Position numbers and translations under genes: made by a program. Of a stretch of DNA of 64,000 nucleotides, positions 1 to 17,125 are shown in pieces. The notes below the pieces were generated by a model. The model was not told where the DNA came from. It saw nothing but the letters and a program-made list of their open reading frames with translations, and did no database searches. Numbering within the stretch: position 1 is the stretch's first letter; every line of letters starts with the position of its first letter. Origin of the DNA: Polyangiales bacterium (GTDB lineage Bacteria; Myxococcota_A; Polyangia; Polyangiales; Ga0077539); NCBI GenBank assembly GCA_046351515.1, contig JAXLYJ010000005.1, positions 370,892 to 434,891 on the forward strand. The letters run 5' to 3'.

Positions 1-415
1 CGTGCGGCGCGAGCAGCGCGCGAACGTCGGCAGGCACTTCTACCGCCGTCGGCCCTTCGAGCGAGCACACCGCGATCACGTGCTCGAACTTCGCCCGAGG
101 CTTGTGATCGCTCTCGCCGACGACGGTGTGCTCGAAGGTCACGCTCGATCGACCGATGCGACGCACGCGAACCTGCACTGCGCAGCGCTCGCCGTAGCGA
201 ATCGGCGCTGAAAAATCGCCCGCCAATCGCACGGTCGGGATCCCCATCCTGCGCGGCCCTGTGAACTGCGCATAGCCGCCCGGAAGCTCGTTGAACAACG
301 CCTCGAGCGCCCGGTGGCACCAGTCGAGAATCCGCGGAAAATACACGAGGCCCGCGATGTCGCACTCGCCCCAGGTCACGTCGATCCGGTGTTCGAACAC
401 GGGCCAGACGTACAC
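1..415 (-). CDS. Hotdog-fold acyl-CoA thioesterase (4HBT-like); 3' end lies beyond the left window edge, so it is absent from the ORF track
   Basis: Manual translation of the minus strand gives ...(M)YVWPVFEHRIDVTWGECDIAGLVYFPRILDWCHRALEALFNELPGGYAQF...VTFEHTVVGESDHKPRAKFEHVIAVCSLEG..., a typical 4HBT thioesterase N-terminus. Putative GTG start at 413-415. It diverges from the SDR gene. Confidence 0.55.
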   Translation of the reverse strand, partial: MYVWPVFEHRIDVTWGECDIAGLVYFPRILDWCHRALEALFNELPGGYAQFTGPRRMGIPTVRLAGDFSAPIRYGERCAVQVRVRRIGRSSVTFEHTVVGESDHKPRAKFEHVIAVCSLEGPTAVEVPADVRALLAPH

Positions 416-530
416 CCAGCGCGCGCGCCGTGGCCAGTCGCGTCGCGAACGCCGCTCGTATGCGCGACGTTCATGGCTCGAGCGCTCGATTCATCGTGCG
501 CGAGTGCGGTATCCATCTCGACCATCAGAG

Positions 531-1295
531 ATGACGGACCATCGCGGAAGAGTGGCGCTCGTCACGGGCGCGAGTCGGGGGATCGGCGAGGCTGTGGCGC
601 GCAGGCTGGCGCGCGAGGGGCTTCGCGTCGCCGCGATGGGACGCGACCGAACGGCGCTCGAGCGCGTCGCGACCGCGTGCGACGGCGCTGCGTTCGCGTG
701 CGACCTCACGGCGCCGGGCGACGTCTCGCGCGCGCTCGCGGACATCGAGCGAGCGCTCGGCCCGATCGACGTGCTCGTGAACAACGCCGGCGTCGCCGAG
801 AGCGCGCCGCTCGAGCTCACGGATGACGCGATGATCGAGCGCACGTTCGCGGTCAACGTCTGGCCTGTGATGCGCCTGTGTCGCGAGCTCGCGCCCAAGA
901 TGGCCAAGCGCGGCTGGGGGCGGGTCATCAACGTCGCGTCCAACGCGGGGCTCACGGGCTACGCGTACACGAGCGCGTACTGCGCCTCGAAGCACGCCGT
1001 CGTGGGATTTACCCGCGCGCTCGCGGCGGAGATCGCGCGCAGCGGCGTGACGGTCAACGCGATCTGTCCGGGCTTCGTCGACACCGAGATGACCGTCGCC
1101 GCGGTCGAGCGGATCGTGAAAAAGACCGGGCGCAGCGCCGAGGAAGCGCGAAGGGCGCTCGAGTCGCAGTCGCCGCAGCGACGGCTGATGACCGTTGAAG
1201 AGGTCGCGCACGCGGTGTTCGCGCTCGTTCCGCACGAGGCGCGGGGCGTGCACGGACAGGCGATCGCGCTCGATGGAGGACAGGTGCTGTCATGA
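531..1295 (+). CDS. Short-chain dehydrogenase/reductase (SDR, 3-oxoacyl/3-hydroxyacyl reductase-like)
   Basis: Start refined to the ATG at 531 (MTDHRGRVALVTGASRGIGEAV...). TGxxxGIG Rossmann motif, NNAG, and catalytic YxxxK (YCASKHAVVGFTRALA). The 240-nt upstream part of ORF 291..1295 is noise. Confidence 0.85.
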   Translation: MTDHRGRVALVTGASRGIGEAVARRLAREGLRVAAMGRDRTALERVATACDGAAFACDLTAPGDVSRALADIERALGPIDVLVNNAGVAESAPLELTDDAMIERTFAVNVWPVMRLCRELAPKMAKRGWGRVINVASNAGLTGYAYTSAYCASKHAVVGFTRALAAEIARSGVTVNAICPGFVDTEMTVAAVERIVKKTGRSAEEARRALESQSPQRRLMTVEEVAHAVFALVPHEARGVHGQAIALDGGQVLS

Positions 1296-1687
1296 AGATC
1301 GTGCAACCCGAGGGATGGCCTTCACCGCGTGGATACGCGAACGGAATCCTCGCCGACGGCCCGACGCTCTACGTCGCCGGCCAAATCGGCTGGAACGAGC
1401 GCTGCGAGTTCACCACCGACGATCTCATCGAGCAGTTCGACCAGGCGCTCGCCAACGTCGTCGCCGTGCTGCGCGCCGGTGGAGCGCGGCCTGAACACGT
1501 CGTCCGTATGACGGTCTACGTCACGGATCTGCCCGCGTATCGCATAGGAGCTCCCAAGCTCAAGGAGCCTTGGCGCAGGCACTTCGGGCGGCATTTTCCC
1601 GCGATGGCGCTCGTCGGTGTCGCCGGGCTCGTCGAGCCTCGGGCGAAGGTCGAGATCGAGGCGACCGCAGTGCTGCCGAGCGCGTGA
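1292..1687 (+). CDS. RidA/YjgF/TdcF-family reactive-intermediate deaminase
   Basis: 131 aa with a YjgF-like fold signature (GPTLYVAGQIG...VVRMTVYVTDL). ATGA overlap with the SDR stop implies translational coupling. Confidence 0.8.
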   Translation: MKIVQPEGWPSPRGYANGILADGPTLYVAGQIGWNERCEFTTDDLIEQFDQALANVVAVLRAGGARPEHVVRMTVYVTDLPAYRIGAPKLKEPWRRHFGRHFPAMALVGVAGLVEPRAKVEIEATAVLPSA

Positions 1688-1746
1688 CGTTCGGGCTCGC
1701 GCGGCTTCCAACGTGAGCCCCAGGGGTAGATACTCCGCGCACGCTC

Positions 1747-2568
1747 ATGGCCGAACTGTCTCCCGTTGGCTTTCTCTTTCGCCTCGATCGCGGCGTCGCG
1801 AAGATCACGCTCAACCGTCCGACGCGACTCAACTCGCTGACGTTCGAGATCTACCAAGAGCTCGCCGAGTTCTTCGTCACGCTCTCGAGCCACCCTGACG
1901 TTCGCTCGATCGTCATCACCGGCGAAGGACGCGGGTTCTGTTCGGGCGGAGACGTGCAGGACATCATCGCCGAGCTGTTCGCTCGAGACGCGAAGGGCAT
2001 GCTCGCCTTCACGCGCACGACGGGCGAGCTCATCGCCAACGTGCGGCGCTGCCGAAAGCCCGTGATCGCCGCGGTCAACGGCGTCGCCGTCGGCGCTGGC
2101 GCGGTGCTGGCAGCGGCGTCGGACGTTCGCTACTTCGCGCGCTCTGCTCGCATCGGGTTCATCTTTCCGAAGGTCGGGCTGTGCGGCGCGGACATGGGCG
2201 CGGCGTACTTGCTTCCGCGCATCGTTGGCCTCGGTCACGCGAGCGAGCTTCTCTTCTCGGGCGCGGTCATCGACGCCGACGAAGCGGCGCGCATCGGGCT
2301 CGCCAACCGCGTGTACGCCGACGACGAGCTGCTCGACAAGGCCATGACGTTCGCGCTGCAGCTGTCGCAGGGGCCCGCGTTCGCGCACTCGATGACGAAG
2401 CAGATGCTCGAGAGCGAGGCGCGGATGGGCCTCGCCGAGGCGATCGAGAGCGAGGCTCAGGCGCAGGCGCTGTGCATGTTTCACCCTGATTTTCGCACTG
2501 CGTACGAGGCCAACACACGCAAGCTCGCCCCTCGTTTCGAGGGTGCTCCCCACGGCGAATCGAAGTAA
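1747..2568 (+). CDS. Enoyl-CoA hydratase/isomerase (crotonase superfamily)
   Basis: ITLNRPTRLNSLT...ITGEGRGFCSGGDV...AAVNGVAVGAGAVLAAASD: canonical crotonase oxyanion-hole motifs. Confidence 0.85.
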   Translation: MAELSPVGFLFRLDRGVAKITLNRPTRLNSLTFEIYQELAEFFVTLSSHPDVRSIVITGEGRGFCSGGDVQDIIAELFARDAKGMLAFTRTTGELIANVRRCRKPVIAAVNGVAVGAGAVLAAASDVRYFARSARIGFIFPKVGLCGADMGAAYLLPRIVGLGHASELLFSGAVIDADEAARIGLANRVYADDELLDKAMTFALQLSQGPAFAHSMTKQMLESEARMGLAEAIESEAQAQALCMFHPDFRTAYEANTRKLAPRFEGAPHGESK

Positions 2569-2583
2569 GCAAGAGGCACCGAA

Positions 2584-4128
2584 GTGACCCCGCTCGCTCG
2601 CACGCGCAACACGCCCAGCACCGACGAGTTTCCGTTCTTCTTCGAGCCCGTGCACATCGCTCTCGCCGAGCGTGCGCGGGACTTCGCGATGAACGTCGCC
2701 GGTCCCGAAGAAGACCTGCACCGTCGAGCCGCCGCAGCGACCTACGAAGTTCTCGGCGAACGCTGCAAGGCGCTCGCGCTGCGCCTCGGAAAAGAGCGGC
2801 TCATCGACGCGTGCGTCCCAGCTGCGTACGGCGGACTGCCGTTCGGCGGTCGGCGCGAGCAGCTCGATGTTCGCTCGATCTGTTTGCTGCGCGAGACCCT
2901 CGCGTGGTCGAGCGCGCTCGCGGAGTTCGTCCTCGCGATGCAGGGGCTCGGCACCTACCCGATCGTCGTCGCGGGCAGCGACGAGCAACGCAAAGAGTAC
3001 TTGCCCCCCGTGTTGCGCGGCGAGTCCATCGCCGCGTTCGCCGTGACCGAGCCGGAGGCAGGCTCGGACGTGGGCGCGATGCGCACGACGGCCGATCGAC
3101 GCAAGGACGTCTACGTGATCAACGGTCGCAAGACGTTCATCTCGAACGCCGGCATCGCGGGACAGTACGTCGTGTTCGCGAAGACCGATCCGGCCGCAGG
3201 AAGCCGCGGAATCTCTGCGTTCATCGTGAAGGACTCAGACCCGGGCTTTCACTTCGAAGGTCCGCAGATGCTCATCACCGAGCACCCCGTCGGGTCGATT
3301 CGCTTCGATGAGCTCACGATCCCCGCCAACCGTCGGCTCGGCCGCGAAGGAGAGGGATTCAAGCTCGCGATGCGGACGCTCGACACGTTTCGCACCACCG
3401 TCGGCGCTGCCGCCTGCGGAATGGCGCGCCGCGCCCTCGACGAGTCGCTCTTTCGCGCGACGACGCGAGAGCAGTTCGGCAAGGCGATCTCGGACAACCA
3501 GCTCGTGCAGGGGTTGCTCGCGAACATGGCGACCGACCTCGACGCTGCTCGCCTGCTCGTCTACCGCGCCGCGTACGGGCGCGACAAAGCGATCGAGCGC
3601 GTCTCGATCGACTCGAGCATGGCCAAGTACTTTGCGACCGAGGCCGCGCAGCGCGTGATCGACAGCGCGGTGCAGGTGCACGGCGGCGCCGGCGTGCTGA
3701 GAGGGATCGCCGTCGAGCGTCTCTACCGAGACATTCGCGCGCTGCGTATCTACGAAGGCACGTCGGAGATCCACCAGGTGATCATCGCGCGCGTGCTCGT
3801 GGGCGGAGAGAAGGCGCGGCAGGACGCGCGCATCCCCGGTGACGCGGGAGACAACCTTCGCGACACGATTCGCGAGGGGCGCGGGCGCGACGGTGACACC
3901 GCGCAGACGGCGCAGATGCCAGCGGTGCTCGCGCCGCCGACGAAGGCTCCGCAGCGACCGACGCCGAAGAAGCCGTTGATCGCCGCGAATCTCTCGGACG
4001 ATCCGCGAAAGACACTGCCCGAGATTCCTGCGCGAAAAGCGCAGGCGGTGATCCGCGAGACGATGCCCGACACGCCCGCGTCCAAGCTGCTCGGAAAGGG
4101 CGGCAAGCGCGAGAACAGCAACGAGTGA
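2584..4128 (+). CDS. Acyl-CoA dehydrogenase with an unusual ~130-aa low-complexity C-terminal tail
   Basis: GTG start. AFAVTEPEAGSDV, YVINGRKTFISNAG, IYEGTSEIHQVIIARVL: full acyl-CoA dehydrogenase N-terminal, middle and C-terminal domains. After ...ARVLVGG there is a Pro/Lys/Arg-rich extension ending ...KGGKRENSNE. Confidence 0.85.
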   Translation: MTPLARTRNTPSTDEFPFFFEPVHIALAERARDFAMNVAGPEEDLHRRAAAATYEVLGERCKALALRLGKERLIDACVPAAYGGLPFGGRREQLDVRSICLLRETLAWSSALAEFVLAMQGLGTYPIVVAGSDEQRKEYLPPVLRGESIAAFAVTEPEAGSDVGAMRTTADRRKDVYVINGRKTFISNAGIAGQYVVFAKTDPAAGSRGISAFIVKDSDPGFHFEGPQMLITEHPVGSIRFDELTIPANRRLGREGEGFKLAMRTLDTFRTTVGAAACGMARRALDESLFRATTREQFGKAISDNQLVQGLLANMATDLDAARLLVYRAAYGRDKAIERVSIDSSMAKYFATEAAQRVIDSAVQVHGGAGVLRGIAVERLYRDIRALRIYEGTSEIHQVIIARVLVGGEKARQDARIPGDAGDNLRDTIREGRGRDGDTAQTAQMPAVLAPPTKAPQRPTPKKPLIAANLSDDPRKTLPEIPARKAQAVIRETMPDTPASKLLGKGGKRENSNE

Positions 4129-4152
4129 CAGTGTGATCGACGGATCGACGCC

Positions 4153-5802
4153 ATGACCGACACGCCGACGTTCGCGGACGACTTCAATCTTGCTGACTAC
4201 TTCCTGCACGATCGAATCCGCGAAGGTCGCGGCGATCGCGTGGCGGTTCGCTTCGGTGATCGACGGTACACGTACCAGTCGGTGAGCGATCGTTCGCGCG
4301 GGTTCGCCGCGTCGCTCCGCGCTGCGGGCGTCGAGCAAGAGCAACGAGTGCTCGTGATCCTGCCCGACCTTCCTCCCTTCGCGTGGTCGATCATGGGGAC
4401 GCTCGAGGCGGGCTGCGTGCTCGCGATGGGCAACCCCGACGCGCCTGCGAAGGACCTCGCGTACTTGCTCGAGTACACCCGCGCCGCAGCGCTCGTCACG
4501 GTGCCTCGCGTGATCGAGTCGCTCGCGTCCGAGCTCGAGCGATCCGCGCACCTCGAGGCGGTGTACGTCGTCGCCGACGCGAAGACCGGCGAGGATCCGT
4601 GCGCGACGGTGGAGCTTCCGACGCTCGGTGATCGCGCGGTGTACTTGCTCGAAGACGAGGTCAGCGCGAAGCGACCGTGGAGCGAGCCGGTCAAGACCCG
4701 CCGTGACGACGTCGCGATCTGGCTGTTCACCTCGGGGTCGACGGGGCACCCGAAGGCGGCGATGCACACGCATCGAGACTTCGCGTTCAACACCGAGGTG
4801 TTTGCCAAGCGCACGATCGGGATGCGCGAAGACGACGTGACCGTGAGCATTCCGAGGCTCTTCTTCGGGTACGCGACGGGGACGAACCTGTTCTTTCCGT
4901 TCGCGGTGGGCGCGACGGCGGCGCTGTTCAGCGAGCGACCGACGCCCGACTCGCTGATGCGCGCGATCGAGTGGTATCGGCCGACGGTGCTCACCAACGT
5001 CCCCACGATGATCGGAAAGCTCCTCGATCACGACGAGGCGCTTCGCTCGAAGGGTGAGAGCGGTCTCGACCTCTCGTGCTTGCGGTTCTGCTTCTCTGCG
5101 GGCGAGGCGCTGCCGCCGCCGCTGCTCACGCGATGGACCGAGCGCTTTGCGATCGACGTGTACGACGGGATCGGCTCGGCCGAGATGTTTCACATCTACG
5201 TGAGCAATCGCCCAGGAGACATCAAGCCGGGATCGCTTGGTCGCGTGGTCGATGGCTACGTCGCGAGGGTCTTGCCCGCGGAGGCCGAGGGCCCCGGAGC
5301 GCCTGAAGTGAGCGCCGACGAAGTAGGCGTCCTGTGGATCCGCGGAGACTCGGTCGCGCTCGGGTACTTTCAAGATCGCGACAAGTCGTGGCGCACGTTT
5401 CACGGCCACTGGTGCCGCACAGGAGACCTCTTTCGCCGCGACGCAGACGGCTACTTCTGGTTCGCCGGCCGGGCGGACGAGATGCTCAAGGTCTCGGGCC
5501 AGTGGGTCTCGCCGATCGAGGTCGAAGAGTGCTTGCTCGCACACGAGGCGGTGCTCTCGTGCGCGCTCATCGGCGTGGATCAGGGCGGAGGGATGCTCTC
5601 GACGCGCGCGTATGTGCAGCTTCGAACAGGATTTTCTGCGGCAGAATCGCTCGCCTCGGCCCTGCAAGAGCACGTGAAGGCGCGCCTGACGAAGCACAAG
5701 TACCCGCGTGAAGTCGTGTTCGTGGACGATCTTCCGCGCAACGACCGCGGCAAGATCGACCGTAAGGCGATCAAGGCGATGGCTGGGGGATCGGCGTCGT
5801 GA
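4153..5802 (+). CDS. Benzoate-CoA ligase-family aryl/alicyclic-acid CoA ligase (AMP-dependent synthetase)
   Basis: FTSGSTGHPKAAMHTH AMP-binding motif, YGxTE-like GYATGTN, and C-terminal ...PRNDRGKIDRKAIKA. Overall resembles the BadA/BclA/AliA family. Confidence 0.8.
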   Translation: MTDTPTFADDFNLADYFLHDRIREGRGDRVAVRFGDRRYTYQSVSDRSRGFAASLRAAGVEQEQRVLVILPDLPPFAWSIMGTLEAGCVLAMGNPDAPAKDLAYLLEYTRAAALVTVPRVIESLASELERSAHLEAVYVVADAKTGEDPCATVELPTLGDRAVYLLEDEVSAKRPWSEPVKTRRDDVAIWLFTSGSTGHPKAAMHTHRDFAFNTEVFAKRTIGMREDDVTVSIPRLFFGYATGTNLFFPFAVGATAALFSERPTPDSLMRAIEWYRPTVLTNVPTMIGKLLDHDEALRSKGESGLDLSCLRFCFSAGEALPPPLLTRWTERFAIDVYDGIGSAEMFHIYVSNRPGDIKPGSLGRVVDGYVARVLPAEAEGPGAPEVSADEVGVLWIRGDSVALGYFQDRDKSWRTFHGHWCRTGDLFRRDADGYFWFAGRADEMLKVSGQWVSPIEVEECLLAHEAVLSCALIGVDQGGGMLSTRAYVQLRTGFSAAESLASALQEHVKARLTKHKYPREVVFVDDLPRNDRGKIDRKAIKAMAGGSAS

Positions 5803-6584
5803 GCGAGCGCTGGCGCGAGGCTCCGCTCTCGCTGAGCGAGTGCACGATGAAGGACTGCGCTGACGTGCTCGCGGGCCCGACGCCGGTGGCGATCGTGGGG
5901 CTGGGATCGACCGAGCCGCACGGGCCGCATCTGCCGCTCGAGACCGACGCGCTGCTCGCGAGAGAGAGCGCGATTCGCGCGGCGAAGGAGCTGCGCGCGC
6001 GCGGGGTGAGCGCCGTCGCCGCGCCGGTGGTCTCGTATGGCGTGACGCGATACGCGGCGGCGTTTGCGGGCGCGGTGACGGTGAGCGACGAGGCGCTGAT
6101 CGCGTACGTCAGCAGCGTGTGCGAGGGGCTGCGCAACGCGGGGTTCGCGCTGGTGTGCGCGACCAATCACCACCTCGAGCCCGAGCACGTGCGCGCGATC
6201 GAAGCGGCGATTTCCAAGGCGAACGAGAGCGTTGGTGCGGTGTGCTTCGCCAATCAGCTCACGCGGCGATGGGGAAGGACGCTCTCGAGCGAGTTCAAGC
6301 GCGGGGCGTGCCACGCCGGGAGCTACGAGAGCTCGCTGGTCCTCGCGGCGCGGCCCGAGCTGGTGCGCGAGTCGATCCGCGAAGCGCTGCCCGACGTCGA
6401 CGTCTCGCTCAGCGAGGCGATTCGCGAGGGAAAAACCGAGTTCGTCGCGATGGGGCTCACTGACGCGTACGCGGGTGAGCCGCGCGAGGCGAGCGCGCGC
6501 GAGGGCGACGAGCTGTACGCGAAGCTCACCGAGATGATCGTGACCGAGGTGCTCGAAGCGATCGGGCGCGGCGTCGCGCGATGA
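5799..6584 (+). CDS. Creatininase-family amidohydrolase (creatinine amidohydrolase/MftE-like)
   Basis: GSTEPHGPHLPLETD metal-binding motif, ATNHH and ESSL motifs typical of the creatininase fold. GTGA overlap with the ligase stop. Confidence 0.7.
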   Translation: MSERWREAPLSLSECTMKDCADVLAGPTPVAIVGLGSTEPHGPHLPLETDALLARESAIRAAKELRARGVSAVAAPVVSYGVTRYAAAFAGAVTVSDEALIAYVSSVCEGLRNAGFALVCATNHHLEPEHVRAIEAAISKANESVGAVCFANQLTRRWGRTLSSEFKRGACHAGSYESSLVLAARPELVRESIREALPDVDVSLSEAIREGKTEFVAMGLTDAYAGEPREASAREGDELYAKLTEMIVTEVLEAIGRGVAR

Positions 6585-7903
6585 GCGAGCCCCGCGACGA
6601 GCCGGGGCTGCACCGAGAGCTCGGGGTGCGCTCGTCGACGCTGCTGACCGCGGGGGCGATGATCGGAACAGGGATCTTCGTCTCGCCCATCGCGACGGCG
6701 AAGGCGACGACGAGCGCGGGATGGATGCTGTTCGCGTGGCTCTTGGGCGGCGCGCTCTCGCTGCTCGGCGCGCTGTCCTTCGCCGAGGCGGGCTCGGCGT
6801 TGCCCGAGACCGGCGGTCTCGCGGTTTATCTGCGTCGCGCGTTCGGTGATTGGGCGGCGTTCTTGTTTGGCTGGGCGATGGTCGCGGTGCTCGTTCCGTC
6901 GAGCGTCGCGTTCTTTGCGCAGGTGGCGTATTGGCATCTTCGCGACGCTGGGGTGCTGCTTCGGCCGGCGTGGCCCACGGTGTTCATCGTGGTGCTCGCG
7001 GCGGTCAACGTTGCGGGGCTGCGCTCGGGCGCGCGAACGCAGAACGCGCTCACGGTGTGCAAGGTGATCGGCGTGGCGCTGGTCGCTGCGCTGGGCTCGA
7101 GCAGGATTTCTCCTGGCGAAATCTCAGCGTCCGCGCAGGCTCCCCGCGGCTCGATCGCGGCGTTCGCGGCGGCGATGGTCCCCGTGCTGTGGGCGTACGA
7201 CGGCTGGATCGACATCACGAGCGTCGCGGGCGAAGTGCGCGAGCCGCGACGCACGATCCCGCGCGCGATCCTCGGCGGAACGCTGCTCGTCACCGCGCTC
7301 TATCTCTTCGCCAACCTCGGCCTGCTCGCGGCGTTCGGCCATCACGGGCTCGCGTCGCTCGGCGAGCGCGACACGGTCTTCACCGTGGGGCCGTGGTCGT
7401 CCGGTGGGCTGCGCGTCGCGCTCGCGCTGCTCGTCGCCGTGGCGTCGATCGGCGGCGGCGCCGTTGGGCTCATGAGCGGCGCTCGCGTGGTGTTCGCGGT
7501 CGCTCGCGACGGGCTTCTCTTCTCGTGGCTCGGTCGCGTCTCGTCCCGGGGCGTGCCCGCAAACGCGCTGATCGCCTGCTCGATCGTGGCGCTCGCGTAT
7601 GTGCACTCGCCGCTCGCGAGGCTCGGCGAGGTGTTCGTGCTCGGCGCGTGGCCGTTCTACGCGCTCGGAGCGGTCGCGGTCGTCGTGCTTCGCAAGCGTT
7701 CGCTGCTCGGAGCGCTCGAGGACCGAGCGGTGTTTCGAACGCCCTTGTTTCCGTGGCCACAAATCATCTTCGCGCTCGTGAGCGTGGCGATCGTCCTTGG
7801 CTACGCGGCGCGCGAGCCGAAGAACACCGCGATCTCTCTCGGGGCGATCGTCGCGGGTCTCGCGCTGTTTCCGTGGTTTCGAGCCCGACGAAAACAACAA
7901 TAG
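6581..7903 (+). CDS. APC-superfamily amino acid permease
   Basis: 440 aa with about 12 predicted TM helices. N-terminal GAMIGTGIFVSPIATA motif typical of APC transporters. ATGA overlap with the upstream gene. Confidence 0.8.
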   Translation: MSEPRDEPGLHRELGVRSSTLLTAGAMIGTGIFVSPIATAKATTSAGWMLFAWLLGGALSLLGALSFAEAGSALPETGGLAVYLRRAFGDWAAFLFGWAMVAVLVPSSVAFFAQVAYWHLRDAGVLLRPAWPTVFIVVLAAVNVAGLRSGARTQNALTVCKVIGVALVAALGSSRISPGEISASAQAPRGSIAAFAAAMVPVLWAYDGWIDITSVAGEVREPRRTIPRAILGGTLLVTALYLFANLGLLAAFGHHGLASLGERDTVFTVGPWSSGGLRVALALLVAVASIGGGAVGLMSGARVVFAVARDGLLFSWLGRVSSRGVPANALIACSIVALAYVHSPLARLGEVFVLGAWPFYALGAVAVVVLRKRSLLGALEDRAVFRTPLFPWPQIIFALVSVAIVLGYAAREPKNTAISLGAIVAGLALFPWFRARRKQQ

Positions 7904-8121
7904 ACTCGATGTGTTGACGGCAATTCGCGCGCTCGAGCTTGCGCCGCGCGCGGTTCGTTGCCACCGTGTCGCCCGCTTCTCGCTCTGCCACCCAACGGTG
8001 TTCGGCACCGCCGAAGAAGCTGCCATCAGACTCACAGGGGCGACGGTCCTACCCCGAGGACCGTAGGGCGGGATGGCAAACAGCGCTCCCCAGCACCGCC
8101 GCGTGCGATGGAGGATGTGTC

Positions 8122-8451
8122 ATGTCGATTCGCTCGATCGTTGCCGTCGCGTTCGTCGCTCTCTTCAGCGTCGCTGGCTGTCGCAACAACGGACAGCCCG
8201 CGCTCGCTCCGTCTCGCGTCGCGTGCGATCGCGTCGTCTCGCTCTGTCAGGGCAACGACACCGATCGCCGTCAGTGCGAGCAGACCTTCGCGGACCTTCG
8301 CCCCAACGTCGACGCTGAAAACGCTGCCCGCACCGCGCGATGCGTCGCCGAGGCGCGCACGTGCGGCGAAGCGACGGGCTGCATGGCGGGCGGCGCCGCA
8401 CGCGCGGGGGCTGGCTTCCTCCGCGACTTCACCAACGGGCTGACGCGCTAG
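8122..8451 (+). CDS. Small Cys-rich lipoprotein (hypothetical)
   Basis: MSIRSIVAVAFVALFSVAGC lipobox followed by about 90 aa carrying 7 Cys. Start refined to the ATG at 8122 inside ORF 7939..8451. Confidence 0.5.
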   Translation: MSIRSIVAVAFVALFSVAGCRNNGQPALAPSRVACDRVVSLCQGNDTDRRQCEQTFADLRPNVDAENAARTARCVAEARTCGEATGCMAGGAARAGAGFLRDFTNGLTR

Positions 8452-9917
8452 CCCACGCGATAGCGCGCGACGCGGCGGCCGCTGGGATCGATGCGGTCGA
8501 CGATTCCGTCGTACTCGATCCACGCGCCACCGTCCTCGAGCGTGACGCTCGCCGTGCGTCCTTCAGGGACGGTCACCGCGTACGTCACGCGCTCGTTCGC
8601 GCTGATCGCGACGTCGCTGCCCGAGTGATAGAGCAGCACGCCGTTGCCGAGCTCGGCCGTGGGGGCCTTGGTCGACTCGGGCCGCGCCACGGAGAAGCGT
8701 CGGCGCCCCTCGGCGTCGATCACGATGCACTCGATGCGGCGCCCTGCTTTCTCCCAGCGATCGCGCACGAGCGCCACGCCTCCGCTGCGCAGCGGAAGCG
8801 CGTTGGCCCCTTGCGCGATCCAGCGAACGGACGGCTTTGGGCTGCGCACGTCCACGCGCGCGACGACGTCGCTCGAGGCCACCAGCACGTGACCGTCGCC
8901 CGAAGGAGCGATCTGCGCGTTCTTGTCGACCGGCAGGCTCCAGCGTTCGCTGCCGTCGGGCAGCGCGAGGGAGACGAGCTTCCACGGAGGCTCGATGACT
9001 TGAACGCTGTCCGAAAACGAGACCGCGTTGGCGACGGTGGCGCTCGGAGCCTGCCACGCGATGCTCGCGTCCTCGCGAAGCACCATTTGTGATTGATAGC
9101 CGGCGACGAAGACGCATCCGCGCGAGAGCGAGATCGCTTCGAACGCGCTCGCTCGGCCTTCATGGCGCGCCGGTCCGCGCACGGCGCCTTCGGCGTCGAT
9201 CACGTAGGCGAGCGCGCCGCCGCCGTCGCTGGGCGTCGCGAGCGCGACGATCACGAGCGCGTTGGTGTTGCGGGCGCGCGCGACGAAGGTGTCTCGGCCT
9301 GCTCCCTCCAGGTCCGCGCGCCACAGAACGCGATCGCCTCGAAGCCGAACGAGCTGCGTTCGGTCCCCTGCGCTCTGCGTGACGACGCGCGAGCCGTCAT
9401 CGAGCTCGAGCGTGCTTCGCGGCGGGACCGCGGCGCCTGGCTTGCGCGAGGACCACGTGCGAGGGCGCACGTCGCTGAGCTTGGGCAAGTCCGGGGTCGA
9501 GAGCGCGAAGACGCGGGTGACGAGCGCGCGAAACAGCTCGGTGCACGCGACGGACCCTTGCTCGATCCAGCCGAGCGCGTCGCGGTCGCGCGTGGGCATT
9601 TCGGCGGAGAGCTCTTCGAGGTGCCTTCGTCGAAGCTGCGGAGAAAGCGCGGCGAGCGCGAGCGGCGTGCGATCGAGCAGCGCGGCGCGAGCGGACTCGT
9701 GCTGAACGACGCACACGTCGTGCATGACCAGCTCGGCTCGCTCGCGGTCGCACGAGACGACGTCGACGAGATAGCTCGAGCAGCGGGTGCAGCGCGCGAC
9801 GCGGAGCTGGCGTTGACCGGGCGAGGGGTTCGTCGTCGATCCGAGGAGCCACTCGATGTCGTCCTTGGGCTCGTTGCTTCCGAAGCCTTTTCTGCAGCGA
9901 TCGCAGCGCTCGCTCAT
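8448..9917 (-). CDS. Hypothetical protein: N-terminal CxxC...CxxC zinc ribbon plus beta-propeller-like (PQQ-like) repeats
   Basis: True start taken at the ATG at 9915-9917 (MSERCDRCRKGF...CTRCSSY). The 225-codon Arg-rich extension of ORF 8448..10592 is an out-of-frame shadow overlapping the next gene. ATGA overlap with the upstream gene stop. Confidence 0.5.
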   Translation of the reverse strand: MSERCDRCRKGFGSNEPKDDIEWLLGSTTNPSPGQRQLRVARCTRCSSYLVDVVSCDRERAELVMHDVCVVQHESARAALLDRTPLALAALSPQLRRRHLEELSAEMPTRDRDALGWIEQGSVACTELFRALVTRVFALSTPDLPKLSDVRPRTWSSRKPGAAVPPRSTLELDDGSRVVTQSAGDRTQLVRLRGDRVLWRADLEGAGRDTFVARARNTNALVIVALATPSDGGGALAYVIDAEGAVRGPARHEGRASAFEAISLSRGCVFVAGYQSQMVLREDASIAWQAPSATVANAVSFSDSVQVIEPPWKLVSLALPDGSERWSLPVDKNAQIAPSGDGHVLVASSDVVARVDVRSPKPSVRWIAQGANALPLRSGGVALVRDRWEKAGRRIECIVIDAEGRRRFSVARPESTKAPTAELGNGVLLYHSGSDVAISANERVTYAVTVPEGRTASVTLEDGGAWIEYDGIVDRIDPSGRRVARYRVG

Positions 9918-11182
9918 GCTGGAGCCCCTGTGTCGTACAAGTCTACGCGCGCCGCGTTGGTGCGGGGAACGGCCACGAGTCCGTCGCTCGCCGCCGCCCA
10001 CCGAGCGCCTGCTCCGCCTTCGGAGATCTCGATGATGCGCGCGCCCGCAGCGTCGACGGCGACCATGCGTTGAGGGTGGGTTCCGCCAGCGGACGGGCGC
10101 TCGAAGGCGACCGCGCCGCCGCCGCGAATGGGCGCGATCTCGATCGAGGTCGAGAAGTCGATGACCTCGCTCGGCGGAGCGCCGGGCGCGATGACGATGG
10201 CGGCGCGATCTCCCACGCGCGCGAGCGCTCCGCTCACCGCGGGCTGCCCTGCGCGAGATCGCTCGAAGATGAGCTCGCCGTCGCGCAGGACGAACACGCG
10301 CTCTCCGCCTGCTTGCGCGCCGTACACCAGCGTCTCGCCGCCGATGAAGAAGCCTGCGCCGACGGCGGTTTGCGTGGCCGGCAGAGCGCAGCTCCAGCGC
10401 ACGGCGCCGTCGTCGTCGAGGCACTCGATCGACGCGGGCGGGCCCGATTGAAATCGCAGGTTCGAGTCGGCGGTGTTGGGCGTCGAGGCCAGGCCGCCGA
10501 CGAACGCGCGCAGCCTCGGCAGCGCGGCGGCGTCGTCGACGTCGAGCGAGCACAAGACTCGGTCGACGCGAACTGCCAGTCTTTTCTCCCACGAATCGAC
10601 GCGAATGGCCGTGGGCTTTCCGTCGAGCGGGATGCGCGAGCGAACCGCGCCAGTGACGAGGTCGACGCAGGCGATGGACGTTCCGTCGAAGGCGAAGAGC
10701 CGACGGCCCTCGACGCAGTAAGGAGCGTCGACCGCGGGTCGCGCGAGGTCTGCGACGACATCGCCTTGCGAGTCGAGCACGAGATGTCGGTCATCGAGGT
10801 GCAGCACCGGACCGTGTTCGGTCTCGGTGATCGCGACCGCGCGACCGTCGCGCCAACCGAGCTCGGGGCGCGAGATGTCCATGGTGATTTCACCCTCGCC
10901 GTTGATCGCGATGAGCCTGGGCGTCACGCCAGCGGTGGTGCTGTAGCCGACGACCCACGCGAGCGATGGAAGCCCGTACGGAGAGGGTTGCGCGAAGATC
11001 GCGACGCCGCGTGGCTCGAGCTTGAGCGGGCGAGCGAAGCGCGTCGCGCGGCGGCCGAGACCGACGATCGTCGCGCCAGACTCCGTGTTGATCGCAGTCG
11101 CGATGAATCCACCACGGGCGGGAACGATGAACGGGTTCGGCCCACCCGCGGCCGAGTACGTCCACGTCGGAGCGGTCAGCAC
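9914..11182 (-). CDS. Hypothetical beta-propeller-like protein (partner of the Zn-ribbon protein)
   Basis: 422 aa with repeated Gly/Asp-rich beta-strand motifs (VVGYSTTAGV..., LVLDSQGDVVADL..., FVLRDGELIF...). No recognisable catalytic motif. Translationally coupled to the downstream gene. Confidence 0.5.
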   Translation of the reverse strand: MLTAPTWTYSAAGGPNPFIVPARGGFIATAINTESGATIVGLGRRATRFARPLKLEPRGVAIFAQPSPYGLPSLAWVVGYSTTAGVTPRLIAINGEGEITMDISRPELGWRDGRAVAITETEHGPVLHLDDRHLVLDSQGDVVADLARPAVDAPYCVEGRRLFAFDGTSIACVDLVTGAVRSRIPLDGKPTAIRVDSWEKRLAVRVDRVLCSLDVDDAAALPRLRAFVGGLASTPNTADSNLRFQSGPPASIECLDDDGAVRWSCALPATQTAVGAGFFIGGETLVYGAQAGGERVFVLRDGELIFERSRAGQPAVSGALARVGDRAAIVIAPGAPPSEVIDFSTSIEIAPIRGGGAVAFERPSAGGTHPQRMVAVDAAGARIIEISEGGAGARWAAASDGLVAVPRTNAARVDLYDTGAPA

Positions 11183-11277
11183 AGTTGCAGGAGCCTATCA
11201 CGGATCGCCCGAGAGACGAGCGGCACTTGTGTTCGCCGAGCGCGCTCTGTCGCTTTGCTACAGTGCGAGGACAGTCG

Positions 11278-12162
11278 ATGAAGCGCGCGGTTGAGTCGGT
11301 GCAGCGGTGGCGTTCGCGTGGAAAATTCCTGACGGTTCATGGGCACGAGCTCTTCGTCGTCGACGAGGGCGAGGGGCCGTGCGTCCTGGTCCTGCACGGG
11401 TTTCCGACGAGCGGATACGATTGGAGCGCGTCGCTCACGGACCTGCGCAAGAAGCACAGGGTGATCGTCACGGACATGTTGGGCTACGGCCTGTCCGCCA
11501 AGCCAGAGGGGTTCTCGTACTCGCTCGAAGCGCAAGCGGACGTCCTGATCGAGCTCTGGCAGCGCCTCGGCGTCCGCCGCGCGCACCTCGTCGCGCACGA
11601 CATGGGCACCTCGGTGCTCTGCGCGCTGCTCGCTCGCCGCGCGAAGGGCGCGCTGCCCATCGAAGTCGAGAGCGCGACCTTCTGCAACGGGAGCGTCTTC
11701 ATCGAGATGGCGAGGCTCACTCCGTCACAGAAAATCCTACGCAACTCGTACGTCGGCCCGGTGTTCGCGAGCCTCGGATCGCGCGCGGTGTTCGGGCTGC
11801 AGCTGCGGAGGATCTTCGGCCGAGCGGACAGCGTTCCGAGCGACGAGCTCGATGCGATGTGGGAGCTGCTCTGCGCCAACGACGGTCGCAAACGACTGCC
11901 GGCGATCATCCGGTACATCGATGAGCGCTACGAGAAGGCTCCGCTCTGGCTCGCGCCGCTCGGCAAGCTCGACGTCCCTGCGCTCGTGCTCTGGGGTGAC
12001 CGCGACCCGGTCTCGATCGTCGAGATCGCCGAGCGATTGGCGAGAGAAATCCCAGGTTCTCAGCTCGTGAAGCTCACGGGCGTCGGCCACTATCCCATGG
12101 TCGAAGACCCCGCGCGCTTCACCGCGGCGCTCGAGGCGTTCTTCGCGAAGGTCGAGCGATGA
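11278..12162 (+). CDS. Alpha/beta-fold hydrolase
   Basis: Start refined to the ATG at 11278 (MKRAVESVQRW). LVLHGFPTSGYDW, nucleophile elbow HDMGTS, and C-terminal GHYPMVEDP His motif. Confidence 0.75.
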   Translation: MKRAVESVQRWRSRGKFLTVHGHELFVVDEGEGPCVLVLHGFPTSGYDWSASLTDLRKKHRVIVTDMLGYGLSAKPEGFSYSLEAQADVLIELWQRLGVRRAHLVAHDMGTSVLCALLARRAKGALPIEVESATFCNGSVFIEMARLTPSQKILRNSYVGPVFASLGSRAVFGLQLRRIFGRADSVPSDELDAMWELLCANDGRKRLPAIIRYIDERYEKAPLWLAPLGKLDVPALVLWGDRDPVSIVEIAERLAREIPGSQLVKLTGVGHYPMVEDPARFTAALEAFFAKVER

Positions 12163-13274: not shown

Positions 13275-13280
13275 GCGAGC

Positions 13281-14894
<1,614 letters not shown>

Positions 14895-14950
14895 GGTGCG
14901 AGGGGCGCGGGAGAGTAGATGAAGTTAGCCCGCGGGTCGGAGGTAATTGG

Positions 14951-14978
14951 TTGACGTGCGGGGTGCGGTGCTTATCCT
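14951..14978 (+). promoter_or_regulatory. Putative sigma70-type promoter for ssrA (TTGACG -16 nt- TATCCT)
   Basis: TTGACG at 14951-14956 and TATCCT at 14973-14978 with a 16-nt spacer, about 20 nt upstream of the tmRNA 5' end. Confidence 0.3.
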
Positions 14979-14998
14979 CCGCGGCACGTTTCGCCAAT

Positions 14999-15361
14999 GG
15001 GGGCGATACGGTTTCGACGTGGGTTGTGAAGGTTCAGTTGCGTGACCGCCGATGATCGTGACGGCGCAAGCGACACGATCAAAACAGAGAAGCGAACGAC
15101 AACGCTCTCGCTCTCGCCGCCTGAATAAAGCGTGCTGAGACGTCTCCCGAAGAGTCCGCCGGTACTCTTCGACGAGGCGCCAAAGAACCGGATGCCTCCT
15201 GGGGACCGCACCCCGACCTGGGAGAAAGCTAAAGGAGTGATTGCCGGTGAGGCAGCCTGTCGATCGGCGGCCTCACCGGTGAAATAAAAGATCGACTACG
15301 TCATGTAGAAGCTGCGCTGGAACTCTCGCGGACCCGGGTTCGACTCCCGGCGCCTCCACCA
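14999..15361 (+). ncRNA. ssrA: tmRNA (SsrA); tag reading frame encodes ANDNALALAA-stop at 15092..15124
   Basis: 5' GGGGGCGAUACGGUUUCGACG..., 3' ...GGACCCGGGUUCGACUCCCGGCGCCUCCACCA (tRNA-Ala-like acceptor/T-arm). Internal ORF gcg aac gac aac gct ctc gct ctc gcc gcc tga gives ANDNALALAA. Confidence 0.9.
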
Positions 15362-15717
15362 TCCAATCCCGCACTCAAGTCCAGGTCTTTGTCACTCCTG
15401 GTCCTCCGTGTGGACGATTCGCCAGGACGAGACCCCCCCTCCCGGGGGACCGTCAATGTCCTCTTCCCAGAGGTGCGCTGGCAACACCGGGAGCCGTTCG
15501 CCGAACGCGCTGTGCAGCGATGCCGCGCTTCCGATGAAGTGCTGCGTCGTGTGCAGGTCTGCGTCTCGATCACGCTTCCTCCGCGCGCTCGAAGACAAGG
15601 CGATCGTCCGTTGCACGCCCAAGCCGATCGACCAGATCACAAGAGATTCTCGATCGTGTGACCGAGTGTTCGTCGGTTGTTGGACGCGATCAATCGCGGG
15701 CGTGTCTGATCGCGTTC

Positions 15718-17094: not shown

Positions 17095-17125
17095 GCCTGG
17101 GGTGATGCGCCGGGGAACGGGCGGT

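What the first reader, a model, noticed from the sequence alone, without database searches (positions are those of the whole stretch)
1..7903. Benzoate-CoA-ligase-family enzyme embedded in a complete beta-oxidation-like set plus RidA, creatininase-family hydrolase and amino-acid permease
Thioesterase (divergent), SDR, RidA, crotonase, acyl-CoA dehydrogenase, BadA/AliA-like CoA ligase, creatininase-fold amidohydrolase and an APC permease are packed with overlapping stop/start codons (ATGA, GTGA). The ligase + acyl-CoA dehydrogenase + hydratase + SDR set mirrors the Ali/Bad cyclohexanecarboxylate and benzoate-type CoA pathways. The RidA deaminase, amidohydrolase and amino-acid permease suggest the substrate is an amino- or amido-substituted cyclic or aromatic acid taken up by the permease. 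The dehydrogenase carries an odd 130-aa disordered tail. The substrate cannot be named from sequence.
Basis: inference. Interest (0 to 1): 0.5.

Follow-up and report, generated by a model that had tools for sequence, protein, structure and literature searches.

The report
Anthranilate-type CoA breakdown operon, oxygenase missing
This is a real eight-gene cluster in a myxobacterium that matches the poorly understood CoA-dependent pathway for breaking down anthranilate (2-aminobenzoate), but it uses a different ligase, has a conserved creatininase-type partner enzyme, and lacks the ring-attacking oxygenase nearby.

Summary
Three stop/start overlaps and conserved gene order in related metagenome genomes support a seven-gene operon plus a divergent thioesterase.

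The closest known system is not Ali/Bad. It is the aerobic 2-aminobenzoyl-CoA (abm) cluster. SDR, Rid, crotonase and acyl-CoA dehydrogenase are about 50% identical to the genes beside anthraniloyl-CoA monooxygenase/reductase (ACMR) in Ralstonia. Related myxobacterial and Latescibacterota loci carry ACMR in the same operon.

The "beta-oxidation set" is not canonical:
- The Rid protein has Met where RidA has its essential Arg105.
- The crotonase lacks both hydratase glutamates and has a PaaG-like Asp.
- The cluster has no thiolase.

The ligase belongs to a benzoate-CoA-ligase clade, about 30% identical to a verified anthranilate-CoA ligase. A creatininase-fold hydrolase with intact metal ligands follows it in 68 of 74 species loci.

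No ACMR or OYE gene lies in the 64-kb window, so the dearomatising step is unaccounted for. The permease, the thioesterase and the 104-aa dehydrogenase tail occur only in this lineage.

Verdict: a new variant of a known, incompletely solved pathway. Anthranilate is the likely substrate but is unproven.

The parts
1..415 (-). Hotdog-fold (4HBT_2) acyl-CoA thioesterase, divergent from the operon. The last two codons and the stop lie beyond the window edge.
   Evidence: Pfam PF13279, E = 4.7e-16. The 140-aa full-length twin in L001 starts VYV.. and ends ..APHEE. It is 35% identical to the thioesterase in the Ralstonia ACMR cluster. It is found only in the window lineage among the 80 species loci.
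416..530 (.). 115-bp divergent intergenic region, presumed promoter/operator. It holds the palindrome TCGAGCGCTCGA.
   Evidence: Inverted repeat at 473-494. Its core is identical in L001. No sigma-70 consensus match was found. The regulatory role is inferred only.
531..1295 (+). Classical short-chain dehydrogenase/reductase.
   Evidence: PF00106, E = 1.5e-60. No NCBIfam model reaches its cut-off. TGxxxGxG and YxxxK are conserved in the 56 aligned orthologues, YxxxK invariantly. It is about 50% identical to the frameshifted SDR in the Ralstonia cluster.
1292..1687 (+). Rid-family protein with Met at the Arg105 position. It is not an archetypal RidA.
   Evidence: PF01042. 'PAM' aligns with 'PAR' of solved RidA proteins. 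Met is invariant in 60 of 60 orthologues and is also present in the Rid genes of the Ralstonia and Arthrobacter pAL1 ACMR clusters. It is 53% identical to the Ralstonia Rid.
1747..2568 (+). Crotonase-fold protein of the PRK08258 type with a PaaG-like active site.
   Evidence: NF006107: 380 bits against 330. The positions of the two hydratase glutamates are Val120 and Lys142, and neither is ever Glu in 62 orthologues. Invariant Asp149 aligns with the 'PD' Asp of PaaG in 4fzw_C and 6sl9.
2584..3813 (+). Acyl-CoA dehydrogenase catalytic domains.
   Evidence: PF02771, PF02770 and PF00441. The RIYEG catalytic Glu is invariant in 46 orthologues. The best solved relatives are uncharacterised dehydrogenases 5idu and 5jsc. 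It is 50% identical to the Ralstonia cluster dehydrogenase.
3814..4128 (+). 104-aa low-complexity C-terminal extension of the dehydrogenase (rich in Ala, Pro, Arg, Asp and Lys).
   Evidence: It is in frame, and its GC1/2/3 of 0.70/0.55/0.84 matches the pattern of true genes. The motif RKTLPEIPARKAQ..IRETMPDTPASKLLGK is conserved in L001 and L009. The extension is 104 aa in the window, L001-3 and L009, 72 aa in L004/5, and at most 22 aa in about 60 other orthologues.
4153..5802 (+). Aryl-CoA ligase of the benzoate-CoA ligase family, in a clade of its own.
   Evidence: TIGR02262: 456 bits against 375. PDB: 2v7b 384 bits, BadA 322, AuaEII 309. It is 30-31% identical to the Arthrobacter (verified) and Ralstonia abm-cluster ligases. 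Substrate-pocket motifs are invariant across 36 clade members taken from loci with and without ACMR.
5799..6584 (+). Creatininase-fold metal hydrolase, translationally coupled to the ligase.
   Evidence: PF02633, E = 1.3e-44. All NCBIfam equivalogs are far below cut-off. E39, H41, D50, H125, H172 and E177 are invariant in 73 orthologues. The AlphaFold model has pLDDT 95.5 and matches only creatininase-family structures, at TM 0.69-0.76 and 18-21% identity. It is adjacent to the ligase in 68 of 74 species loci.
6581..7903 (+). APC-superfamily amino-acid permease.
   Evidence: PF13520, E = 4.9e-42. The best NCBIfam hit is the L-type amino acid transporter at 165 bits against a cut-off of 702. 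It is present only in L001-L005 and L009.

Best explanation
The cluster is a myxobacterial (Polyangiales) variant of the aerobic 2-aminobenzoyl-CoA (abm-type) catabolic system.

Proposed course:
1. The APC permease imports an amino-aromatic acid, most likely anthranilate or a close precursor.
2. The creatininase-fold hydrolase, always paired with this ligase clade, most likely frees the acid from an N-acylated or cyclic amide precursor.
3. The benzoate-CoA-ligase-family enzyme makes the aryl-CoA thioester.
4. A dearomatising flavoenzyme that is not encoded here converts it to 2-amino-5-oxocyclohex-1-ene-1-carbonyl-CoA. Relatives use ACMR or an OYE-type reductase.
5. The Met105-type Rid protein hydrolyses this enamine/imine to a cyclohexanedione-carbonyl-CoA and ammonia.
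6. The PaaG-like crotonase, the SDR and the acyl-CoA dehydrogenase rearrange, open and oxidise the ring.
7. The thioesterase releases CoA from end or dead-end products.

Shown: gene identities, operon structure, orthology to ACMR-linked modules, the atypical active sites, and the ligase-creatininase linkage.

Inferred: the substrate, the order of steps, every individual reaction, and the supply of the dearomatising enzyme from elsewhere in the genome.
For: - Module orthology. Window Rid, dehydrogenase, crotonase and SDR are 53%, 50%, 48% and about 50% identical to the genes flanking ACMR on the Ralstonia megaplasmid. That cluster also has a thioesterase.
- ACMR in relatives. ACMR homologues passing the NCBIfam equivalog NF006101 sit in the same operon as orthologues of the ligase, creatininase and module in L007 and L012. 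tblastn places ACMR homologues the same way in L017, L019, L030, L031 and L039.
- Rid signature. The Rid proteins of three phyla next to ACMR share Met at the Arg105 site. One of them is on Arthrobacter pAL1, where anthranilate-CoA ligase activity and a C7H8O4-CoA intermediate were measured (PMC3534580).
- Same ligase substrate expected. Ligase pocket motifs (FGYATG, GSAEMFHIY) are invariant between members with and without ACMR nearby.
- Plausible substrate range. Benzoate-CoA ligases of Thauera and Azoarcus accept 2-aminobenzoate (PMC8388817).
- Creatininase follows the ligase. It is next to the ligase in 68 of 74 loci, including loci without the module (L090). It is absent from the two clusters examined that use AbmG-type ligases.
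- Operon structure. Overlapping stop/start codons and conserved order.
Against: - No ACMR, OYE or DUF455 homologue is found in the 64-kb window or in the 10 kb upstream of the 95%-identical twin.
- Twelve of 41 well-flanked module-bearing loci lack any local dearomatising gene. These include a whole Kofleriaceae-dominated subclade. The six-gene unit may therefore work without one.
- The ligase is only about 30% identical to the verified anthranilate-CoA ligase. It keeps the His-Ile pair of BadA, which (from memory of BadA engineering work) disfavours ortho substituents.
- NCBI names the ACMR homologues salicylyl-CoA 5-hydroxylase, so the aromatic substrate is not fixed by homology.
- No enzyme of the lower abm pathway has been characterised (PMC9007349).
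Confidence: 0.5

Rival explanations
1. The operon is self-contained and independent of ACMR. It degrades a non-aromatic beta-amino or alicyclic amino acid, for example a 2-aminocycloalkane carboxylate or a lactam opened by the creatininase-fold enzyme. After CoA activation, the acyl-CoA dehydrogenase itself creates the 3-amino-2-enoyl-CoA enamine. The Met105 Rid protein hydrolyses it to a 3-oxoacyl-CoA. The SDR and crotonase finish the job.
For: - Twelve of 41 well-flanked loci carry the module without ACMR or OYE. A whole Kofleriaceae-dominated subclade has only housekeeping neighbours.
- The window lineage added an amino-acid permease rather than an oxygenase.
- A creatinine-type hydrolase opening a cyclic amide would yield exactly an amino acid.
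- The dehydrogenase has an intact catalytic Glu.
Against: - The ligase pocket is invariant between ACMR-linked and ACMR-less loci. The ligase is firmly in the aromatic-acid family.
- The same module is 44-53% identical to modules that sit with ACMR.
- No candidate natural substrate is known.
Confidence: 0.2
2. It is an Ali/Bad-like pathway for cyclohexanecarboxylate or benzoate. The steps would be ligase, cyclohexanecarboxyl-CoA dehydrogenase, hydratase, hydroxyacyl-CoA dehydrogenase, then ring cleavage.
For: The same four enzyme superfamilies are present. The ligase scores 322 bits against BadA. The dehydrogenase gives weak hits to cyclohexanecarboxyl-CoA dehydrogenase models.
Against: - Those models score 174 and 232 bits against cut-offs of 575 and 650.
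- The crotonase lacks both hydratase glutamates.
- There is no second, BadI-type crotonase.
- A conserved Rid protein and the linkage to ACMR in relatives have no place in Ali/Bad.
Confidence: 0.07
3. The substrate is salicylate or another ortho-substituted benzoate, handled as in the Streptomyces salicylyl-CoA 5-hydroxylase route. The thioesterase would release the hydroxylated product.
For: The ACMR homologues in related loci pass the NCBIfam equivalog named 'bifunctional salicylyl-CoA 5-hydroxylase/oxidoreductase'. A thioesterase is present.
Against: A conserved Rid-family enamine/imine hydrolase and an amino-acid permease point to a nitrogen-bearing substrate. The same Rid type sits in the Arthrobacter cluster, where anthraniloyl-CoA was measured (PMC3534580). 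JGI names the same family anthraniloyl-CoA monooxygenase.
Confidence: 0.08
4. It has a biosynthetic role. The ligase would supply an aryl-CoA starter unit for a secondary metabolite, as AuaEII does for aurachins in Stigmatella.
For: The ligase scores 309 bits against AuaEII. Myxobacteria are rich in such pathways.
Against: No PKS or NRPS gene is next to the cluster in the window or in relatives. The partners are catabolic-type enzymes orthologous to the abm module.
Confidence: 0.03

Closest known systems
Aerobic 2-aminobenzoyl-CoA (abm) gene clusters. The founding example is Azoarcus evansii (Schuhle et al. 2001, recalled from memory; the paper is not held). Annotated homologues examined here are Ralstonia solanacearum CP047137.1 and Arthrobacter sp. 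Rue61a pAL1 NC_009453.1.
   Same: - Aryl-CoA ligase plus Rid-family protein plus crotonase, acyl-CoA dehydrogenase, SDR and thioesterase.
- Module proteins are 48-53% identical to those of Ralstonia.
- The Rid protein has the same Met-for-Arg105 signature in all three phyla.
   Different: - No ACMR in the window and no MarR regulator.
- The ligase is a benzoate-CoA-ligase clade about 30% identical to the abm-cluster ligases, which are 53% identical to each other.
- A creatininase-fold hydrolase and an APC permease are added.
- Arthrobacter uses a FAH-family hydrolase and a cupin instead of the crotonase/dehydrogenase/SDR trio.
Bad/Ali cyclohexanecarboxylate and benzoate pathway of Rhodopseudomonas palustris.
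   Same: The same four superfamilies (ligase, acyl-CoA dehydrogenase, crotonase, SDR) act on a cyclic acyl-CoA. The ligase is in the same family as BadA (322 bits).
   Different: - The dehydrogenase is far below the cyclohexanecarboxyl-CoA dehydrogenase cut-offs.
- The crotonase is not a hydratase by its active site.
- There is no BadI-type second crotonase.
- Rid, creatininase and permease have no counterpart.
Box-pathway benzoate-CoA ligase (Burkholderia xenovorans, PDB 2v7b).
   Same: It is the best solved relative of the ligase, at 384 bits over the full length. Both share the core motifs and the His-Ile pair after GSxEM.
   Different: The pocket motif is FGYATG where 2v7b and BadA have FAYGLG. 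No box genes were seen in the 20 kb annotated, though this was not searched systematically.
PaaG, 1,2-epoxyphenylacetyl-CoA isomerase of the phenylacetate pathway (PDB 4fzw_C, 6sl9).
   Same: It is the second-best solved relative of the crotonase (141 bits). Both lack the two hydratase glutamates and share the aligned Asp.
   Different: The crotonase belongs to a separate NCBIfam equivalog (NF006107, 380 bits). The PaaG model scores only 167 bits against a cut-off of 345. Its genomic partners are different.
Creatininase family: creatinine amidohydrolase, MftE peptidase, IolN diketo-inositol hydrolase.
   Same: Same fold (TM 0.69-0.76 to creatininase structures) and a full set of metal and catalytic residues.
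   Different: Only 18-21% identical to solved members. It scores 79, 62 and 43 bits against MftE, creatininase and IolN models, whose cut-offs are 172-245. The fixed pairing with an aryl-CoA ligase is not described in the papers searched.
Rid4-7 subfamilies of the Rid (YjgF/RidA) family.
   Same: Lacks the active-site Arg105. Those subfamilies have no assigned biochemical function (PMC7221256, PMC4433059).
   Different: Assignment to a particular numbered subfamily was not tested. This group has an invariant P-A-M motif and a constant genomic link to aryl-CoA clusters.

Membership tests
abm-type aerobic 2-aminobenzoyl-CoA catabolic cluster | 2-aminobenzoyl-CoA monooxygenase/reductase (an FAD monooxygenase fused to an OYE reductase; NCBIfam NF006101) encoded with the cluster | tested here: not met
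   tblastn of the L007 ACMR and the L006 OYE against the whole 64-kb window gave no hit. None lies in the 10 kb upstream of the twin locus L001. Presence elsewhere in the genome could not be tested.
abm-type aerobic 2-aminobenzoyl-CoA catabolic cluster | Lower-pathway module (crotonase, acyl-CoA dehydrogenase, SDR) orthologous to the genes beside ACMR | tested here: met
   48%, 50% and about 50% identity to the Ralstonia cluster genes. The crotonase passes equivalog NF006107. The same module is in one operon with ACMR in L007, L012, L017, L019, L030, L031 and L039.
abm-type aerobic 2-aminobenzoyl-CoA catabolic cluster | Rid-family ('translation inhibitor') gene in the cluster | tested here: met
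   53% identical to the Ralstonia cluster Rid and 33% to the Arthrobacter pAL1 Rid. All share Met at the Arg105 site.
abm-type aerobic 2-aminobenzoyl-CoA catabolic cluster | AbmG-type 2-aminobenzoate-CoA ligase | tested here: not met
   A ligase is present, but it is 30% identical to the verified Arthrobacter enzyme and 31% to the Ralstonia one. Those two are 53% identical to each other. In the NJ tree the window clade is separate from both.
abm-type aerobic 2-aminobenzoyl-CoA catabolic cluster | Activity on, or induction by, 2-aminobenzoate | not testable with these tools
   Needs enzyme assays or expression data.
Bad/Ali cyclohexanecarboxylate-benzoate pathway | Cyclohexanecarboxyl-CoA dehydrogenase (TIGR03207 / NF043006) | tested here: not met
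   174 and 232 bits against cut-offs of 575 and 650.
Bad/Ali cyclohexanecarboxylate-benzoate pathway | Canonical enoyl-CoA hydratase (BadK-type) with the two catalytic glutamates | tested here: not met
   Val120 and Lys142 occupy those positions, and neither is ever Glu in 62 orthologues. The reference motif for the alignment was recalled from memory. It is independently consistent with the PaaG alignment.
Bad/Ali cyclohexanecarboxylate-benzoate pathway | Ring-cleaving 2-ketocyclohexanecarboxyl-CoA hydrolase (BadI, a second crotonase) | tested here: not met
   There is only one crotonase gene in 1-7903. No BadI model is among its 25 best NCBIfam hits.
Benzoate-CoA ligase family (TIGR02262) | Score above the curated family cut-off, with benzoate/aryl-CoA ligases as the closest solved relatives | tested here: met
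   455.8 bits against 375.25. 2v7b 384 bits, BadA 322, AuaEII 309; the next relative scores 167.
Archetypal RidA (2-iminoacid deaminase) | Active-site Arg105 that binds the substrate carboxylate | tested here: not met
   Met in the window protein and in 60 of 60 orthologues. TIGR00004 scores 62 bits against a cut-off of 106.
Creatinine amidohydrolase (TIGR04448) | Equivalog-level sequence score | tested here: not met
   62.4 bits against 235. 18-21% identity to solved creatininases.
Creatininase superfamily (PF02633) | The fold and the binuclear-metal ligands (Glu, His, Asp, His, Glu) plus the catalytic His | tested here: met
   PF02633: 152.8 bits against 31.3. The six residues are invariant in 73 orthologues. 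The model has pLDDT 95.5 and TM 0.69-0.76 to creatininase structures. Which residue plays which role is inferred from the motif alignment with 3lub and from memory of the creatininase active site.

The most novel reading that the evidence does not exclude
The creatininase-fold enzyme that follows this ligase clade in almost every species has a new activity in aryl-CoA metabolism. It could be an aryl-amide hydrolase that feeds the ligase, acting on N-formyl- or N-acyl-anthranilate or on a lactam. Or it could be a ring-opening beta-dicarbonyl hydrolase acting on cyclohexanedione-carbonyl-CoA. In the same reading, the six-gene unit without ACMR is a complete, previously undescribed route in which an acyl-CoA dehydrogenase generates the enamine that a Met105-type Rid protein then deaminates.
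Probability: 0.2. Interest if true: 0.6.

Novelty: new variant of a known kind. Interest (0 to 1): 0.4.

Why it matters
The steps after ring dearomatisation in the aerobic 2-aminobenzoyl-CoA pathway are still unassigned. The gene cluster dates, from memory, to 2001. A 2022 pathway-annotation effort left the route out for lack of knowledge (PMC9007349).

This locus and its roughly 80 relatives give concrete, testable assignments:
- A Rid subfamily with Met in place of Arg105 as the enamine deaminase.
- A PaaG-like crotonase rather than a hydratase.
- An obligate ligase-creatininase pair.

The relatives also show that the dearomatising partner is interchangeable: an ACMR fusion, a separate OYE-type reductase, or nothing nearby. 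The pathway appears widespread in soil and freshwater Polyangia, where tryptophan-derived anthranilate from prey protein would be a plausible substrate (my inference). For this particular window the result is modest. It is one more member of a conserved cluster, with a lineage-specific permease, thioesterase and dehydrogenase tail.

Tried and rejected
- ACMR, OYE and DUF455 in the window: searched by tblastn; none found.
- Source genome: the creatininase is 100% identical to P0121 from an NCBI Polyangiales MAG, on a 490,825-bp contig. Only short Logan contigs could be retrieved.
- Close ligase relatives among annotated plasmids: all below 40% identity.
- Founding abm paper (PMC95408): not held, so its content is cited from memory and through secondary papers.
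- Apparent 1092-aa OYE-ligase fusion ORF in Sorangium: rejected. The N-terminal 530 aa have no domain in that frame. The OYE similarity is a separate gene between dehydrogenase and ligase.
- Upstream MerR/3-hydroxyacyl-CoA dehydrogenase/thiolase genes of the twin loci: not counted as part of the system. They co-occur only in the window lineage.
- Alternative oxygenase in the Kofleriaceae-dominated loci that lack one: the conserved flanks are a kinase, TANGO2, DUF507 and NUDIX.
- Literature on creatininase plus benzoate-CoA ligase, and on the ACMR product: nothing beyond the Arthrobacter paper. The IolN search was uninformative.
- Promoter and terminator scan: no useful signal.
- Intergenic DNA alignment: my coordinates for L009 and L004 were poorly chosen, so only the window/L001 comparison is usable.

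Full report
**Observation**

- A 4HBT_2 thioesterase lies on the minus strand at <1..415.
- Seven genes follow on the plus strand: SDR 531-1295, Rid 1292-1687, crotonase 1747-2568, acyl-CoA dehydrogenase 2584-4128, ligase 4153-5802, creatininase-family protein 5799-6584 and APC permease 6581-7903.

The overlaps ATGA (SDR/Rid), GTGA (ligase/creatininase) and ATGA (creatininase/permease) are in the sequence. The other gaps are 15-59 nt. The thioesterase lacks only its last two codons at the window edge.

Genes after the permease are unrelated: a beta-propeller, an alpha/beta hydrolase, a TPR protein and RF3.

The window is about 68% G+C. The creatininase is 100% identical to a protein of an NCBI 'Polyangiales bacterium' MAG.

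**Conservation**

The same eight genes in the same order occur on independent contigs whose ligases are 95% (L001-L003), 87% (L009) and 73% (L004/L005) identical.

A scan of one genome per species gave 80 further loci of the same ligase clade. They come from:
- Polyangia: Sorangium, Labilithrix, Byssovorax, Kofleriaceae and Nannocystis.
- Latescibacterota and Krumholzibacteriia.
- One Acidobacteriota MAG and one Porticoccus.

Mapping the window proteins onto these loci shows:
- The creatininase gene directly follows the ligase in 68 of 74 loci with enough downstream sequence.
- SDR, Rid, crotonase and dehydrogenase are all present in 48 of 62 loci with at least 4.5 kb upstream.
- The permease, the thioesterase and the long dehydrogenase tail occur only in the window's own lineage.

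**Link to the 2-aminobenzoyl-CoA pathway**

Seven related loci carry a roughly 760-aa protein in the same operon: L007, L012, L017, L019, L030, L031 and L039. It fuses an FAD monooxygenase to an OYE reductase. The two that were scanned pass the NCBIfam equivalog NF006101 (1235 and 1112 bits against 1078). JGI names the family anthraniloyl-CoA monooxygenase. From memory of Schuhle et al. 2001, this is the architecture of 2-aminobenzoyl-CoA monooxygenase/reductase (ACMR).

An annotated proteobacterial cluster on the Ralstonia solanacearum megaplasmid reads ACMR, (SDR), MarR, enoyl-CoA hydratase family, acyl-CoA dehydrogenase, AMP-binding ligase, thioesterase, RidA family. Identities of the window proteins to it are:

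| Window protein | Identity to Ralstonia |
|---|---|
| Rid | 53% |
| Dehydrogenase | 50% |
| Crotonase | 48% |
| SDR | about 50% |
| Thioesterase | 35% |
| Ligase | 31% |

On Arthrobacter plasmid pAL1, the ligase gene next to ACMR was shown to encode an anthranilate-CoA ligase. Anthranilate-grown cells there contained anthraniloyl-CoA and a C7H8O4-CoA interpreted as cyclohexanedione-carboxyl-CoA (PMC3534580). That cluster also holds a Rid gene and a thioesterase.

The module in the window is therefore the 'lower' part of an abm-type cluster. Its reactions have never been assigned. GapMind left the route out 'due to a lack of knowledge' (PMC9007349).

**Not a canonical beta-oxidation set**

- Rid protein. 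It has Met where RidA proteins have Arg105 ('PAM' against 'PAR'). Met is invariant in 60 of 60 orthologues and is also present in the Ralstonia and Arthrobacter cluster Rid proteins. Arg105 binds the substrate carboxylate and is needed for iminoacid hydrolysis. Rid4-7 members lack it and have no assigned function (PMC4433059, PMC7221256). A substrate without a free alpha-carboxylate, such as an enamine CoA thioester, would fit.
- Crotonase. It passes the equivalog NF006107. It has Val and Lys at the positions of the two hydratase glutamates, never Glu in 62 orthologues. Its invariant Asp aligns with the Asp of PaaG isomerases. The hydratase reference motif and the catalytic role of that Asp are from memory.
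- Dehydrogenase and SDR. Both keep their catalytic residues.
- Thiolase. None is in the cluster. The thiolase and 3-hydroxyacyl-CoA dehydrogenase a few kb upstream in the twin loci co-occur only in this lineage.

**The ligase**

It passes the benzoate-CoA ligase family model (456 bits against 375). Its best solved relatives are benzoate-CoA ligases: B. xenovorans 2v7b at 384 bits and BadA at 322. The anthranilate-CoA ligase AuaEII follows at 309 bits, and all other structures score 167 or less.

It is not the abm-type ligase. It is 30-31% identical to the Arthrobacter and Ralstonia enzymes, which are 53% identical to each other. The whole clade stands apart from them in an NJ tree. No plasmid-borne gene exceeds 40% identity.

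Within the clade the pocket-lining motifs are invariant across 36 members, whether or not ACMR is nearby. This argues for one shared substrate. Benzoate-CoA ligases of Thauera and Azoarcus accept 2-aminobenzoate (PMC8388817).

**The creatininase-fold protein**

- All six metal-binding and catalytic residues are invariant in 73 orthologues.
- An AlphaFold model (pLDDT 95.5) matches only creatininase-family structures, at TM 0.69-0.76 and 18-21% identity.
- It is far below the cut-offs of the MftE, creatininase and IolN models.
- It follows the ligase even where no module is nearby (L090).
- It is absent from the Ralstonia and Arthrobacter clusters, which use the other ligase type.

This pattern ties it to the ligase step rather than to the lower pathway. 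I infer that it liberates the ligase's acid substrate from an amide precursor. A role as a ring-opening hydrolase, by analogy with IolN, is less favoured but not excluded. No paper in the searched library links the two families.

**The dehydrogenase tail**

The extension beyond the catalytic domain is 104 aa in the window, L001-3 and L009, and 72 aa in L004/5. It is at most 22 aa in about 60 other orthologues. It has the codon-position G+C of real genes here. It is low in complexity but ends in a conserved motif of about 30 aa. It is real and lineage-specific, and its function is unknown.

**The missing step**

No ACMR, OYE or DUF455 homologue lies in the 64-kb window or in the 10 kb upstream of the twin locus. 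The 41 loci with at least 8 kb on both sides divide as follows:

| Content | Loci |
|---|---|
| Fused ACMR | 2 |
| Separate FadH/BaiCD-like OYE gene | 19 |
| Module but neither ACMR nor OYE | 12 |
| No module | 8 |

The group with neither includes a whole Kofleriaceae-dominated subclade, where sampled conserved neighbours are housekeeping genes. I could not examine the rest of the source genome. This is the main weakness of the anthranilate model. It is also the basis of the rival in which the dehydrogenase itself makes the enamine from a saturated amino-acyl-CoA.

**Mechanism proposed**

Confidence is about 0.5, and every step is inferred.
1. Uptake by the permease.
2. Amide hydrolysis by the creatininase-fold enzyme.
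3. CoA activation by the ligase.
4. Dearomatisation by a flavoenzyme encoded elsewhere.
5. Enamine/imine hydrolysis by the Met105 Rid protein, giving a cyclohexanedione-carbonyl-CoA.
6. Isomerisation or ring opening and redox steps by the crotonase, SDR and dehydrogenase.
7. CoA release by the thioesterase.

**Verdict**

The finding is a genuine, conserved catabolic operon. The Ali/Bad comparison and the 'complete beta-oxidation set' do not. It is a new variant of a known but unsolved pathway, of moderate interest.

Noticed in passing
L006 4524-7716; also L047, L016, L023, L037, L059 and Sorangium loci L038/L042 about 8400-9900: Many related loci have, between dehydrogenase and ligase, a separate OYE protein of about 500 aa resembling the N-terminal half of FadH/BaiCD. 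In L006 and L047 it is followed by a DUF455 protein and a 296-aa protein with no family. This may be an alternative dearomatising system to the fused ACMR.
   Followed up: partly
L006 11683-13059; protein P0221: In some relatives the creatininase-fold protein is fused to a C-terminal FHA / Yop-YscD_cpl domain, giving 456-458 aa. This hints at regulation or complex formation.
   Followed up: no
L095 (Arthrobacter pAL1 NC_009453.1) 22136-29049: The experimentally supported Arthrobacter anthranilate-CoA cluster pairs the Met105-type Rid, thioesterase, ligase and ACMR with a fumarylacetoacetate-hydrolase-family protein and a cupin. It has no crotonase, dehydrogenase or SDR. The lower pathway may therefore differ between phyla.
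   Followed up: partly
L004 9212-9784 (minus strand): In the 73%-identity relative, a nitroreductase-family gene is inserted antisense between dehydrogenase and ligase. Its dehydrogenase tail is 72 aa rather than 104 aa.
   Followed up: no
window 473-494: An imperfect 22-bp palindrome with the perfect core TCGAGCGCTCGA lies in the divergent thioesterase/SDR intergenic region. The core is identical in L001. It is a possible operator, although no regulator gene lies in the cluster.
   Followed up: partly
L033, L011, L013, L051 (sister group of the window lineage in the ligase tree): These loci have the ligase without an adjacent creatininase gene. L033 also has the module. They are exceptions to the otherwise near-universal pairing.
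   Followed up: no
L001 436-5832 (upstream of the window start); same in L004 and L009: A MerR regulator, a 3-hydroxyacyl-CoA dehydrogenase, an unknown 412-aa protein, a thiolase, an ECF sigma factor and a YbjN-like protein lie just upstream of the thioesterase. This holds in the window lineage only.
   Followed up: partly
window 7939-20639: Downstream genes: a small ORF with a signal-peptide/lipobox-like N-terminus (..VALFSVAGC, by eye), a PQQ-like beta-propeller (minus strand), an alpha/beta hydrolase, a TPR protein, release factor RF3 (13281-14894, minus strand), a DUF4097 protein and an M66-like metallopeptidase. The hydrolase-to-RF3 stretch is syntenic with L004.
   Followed up: partly
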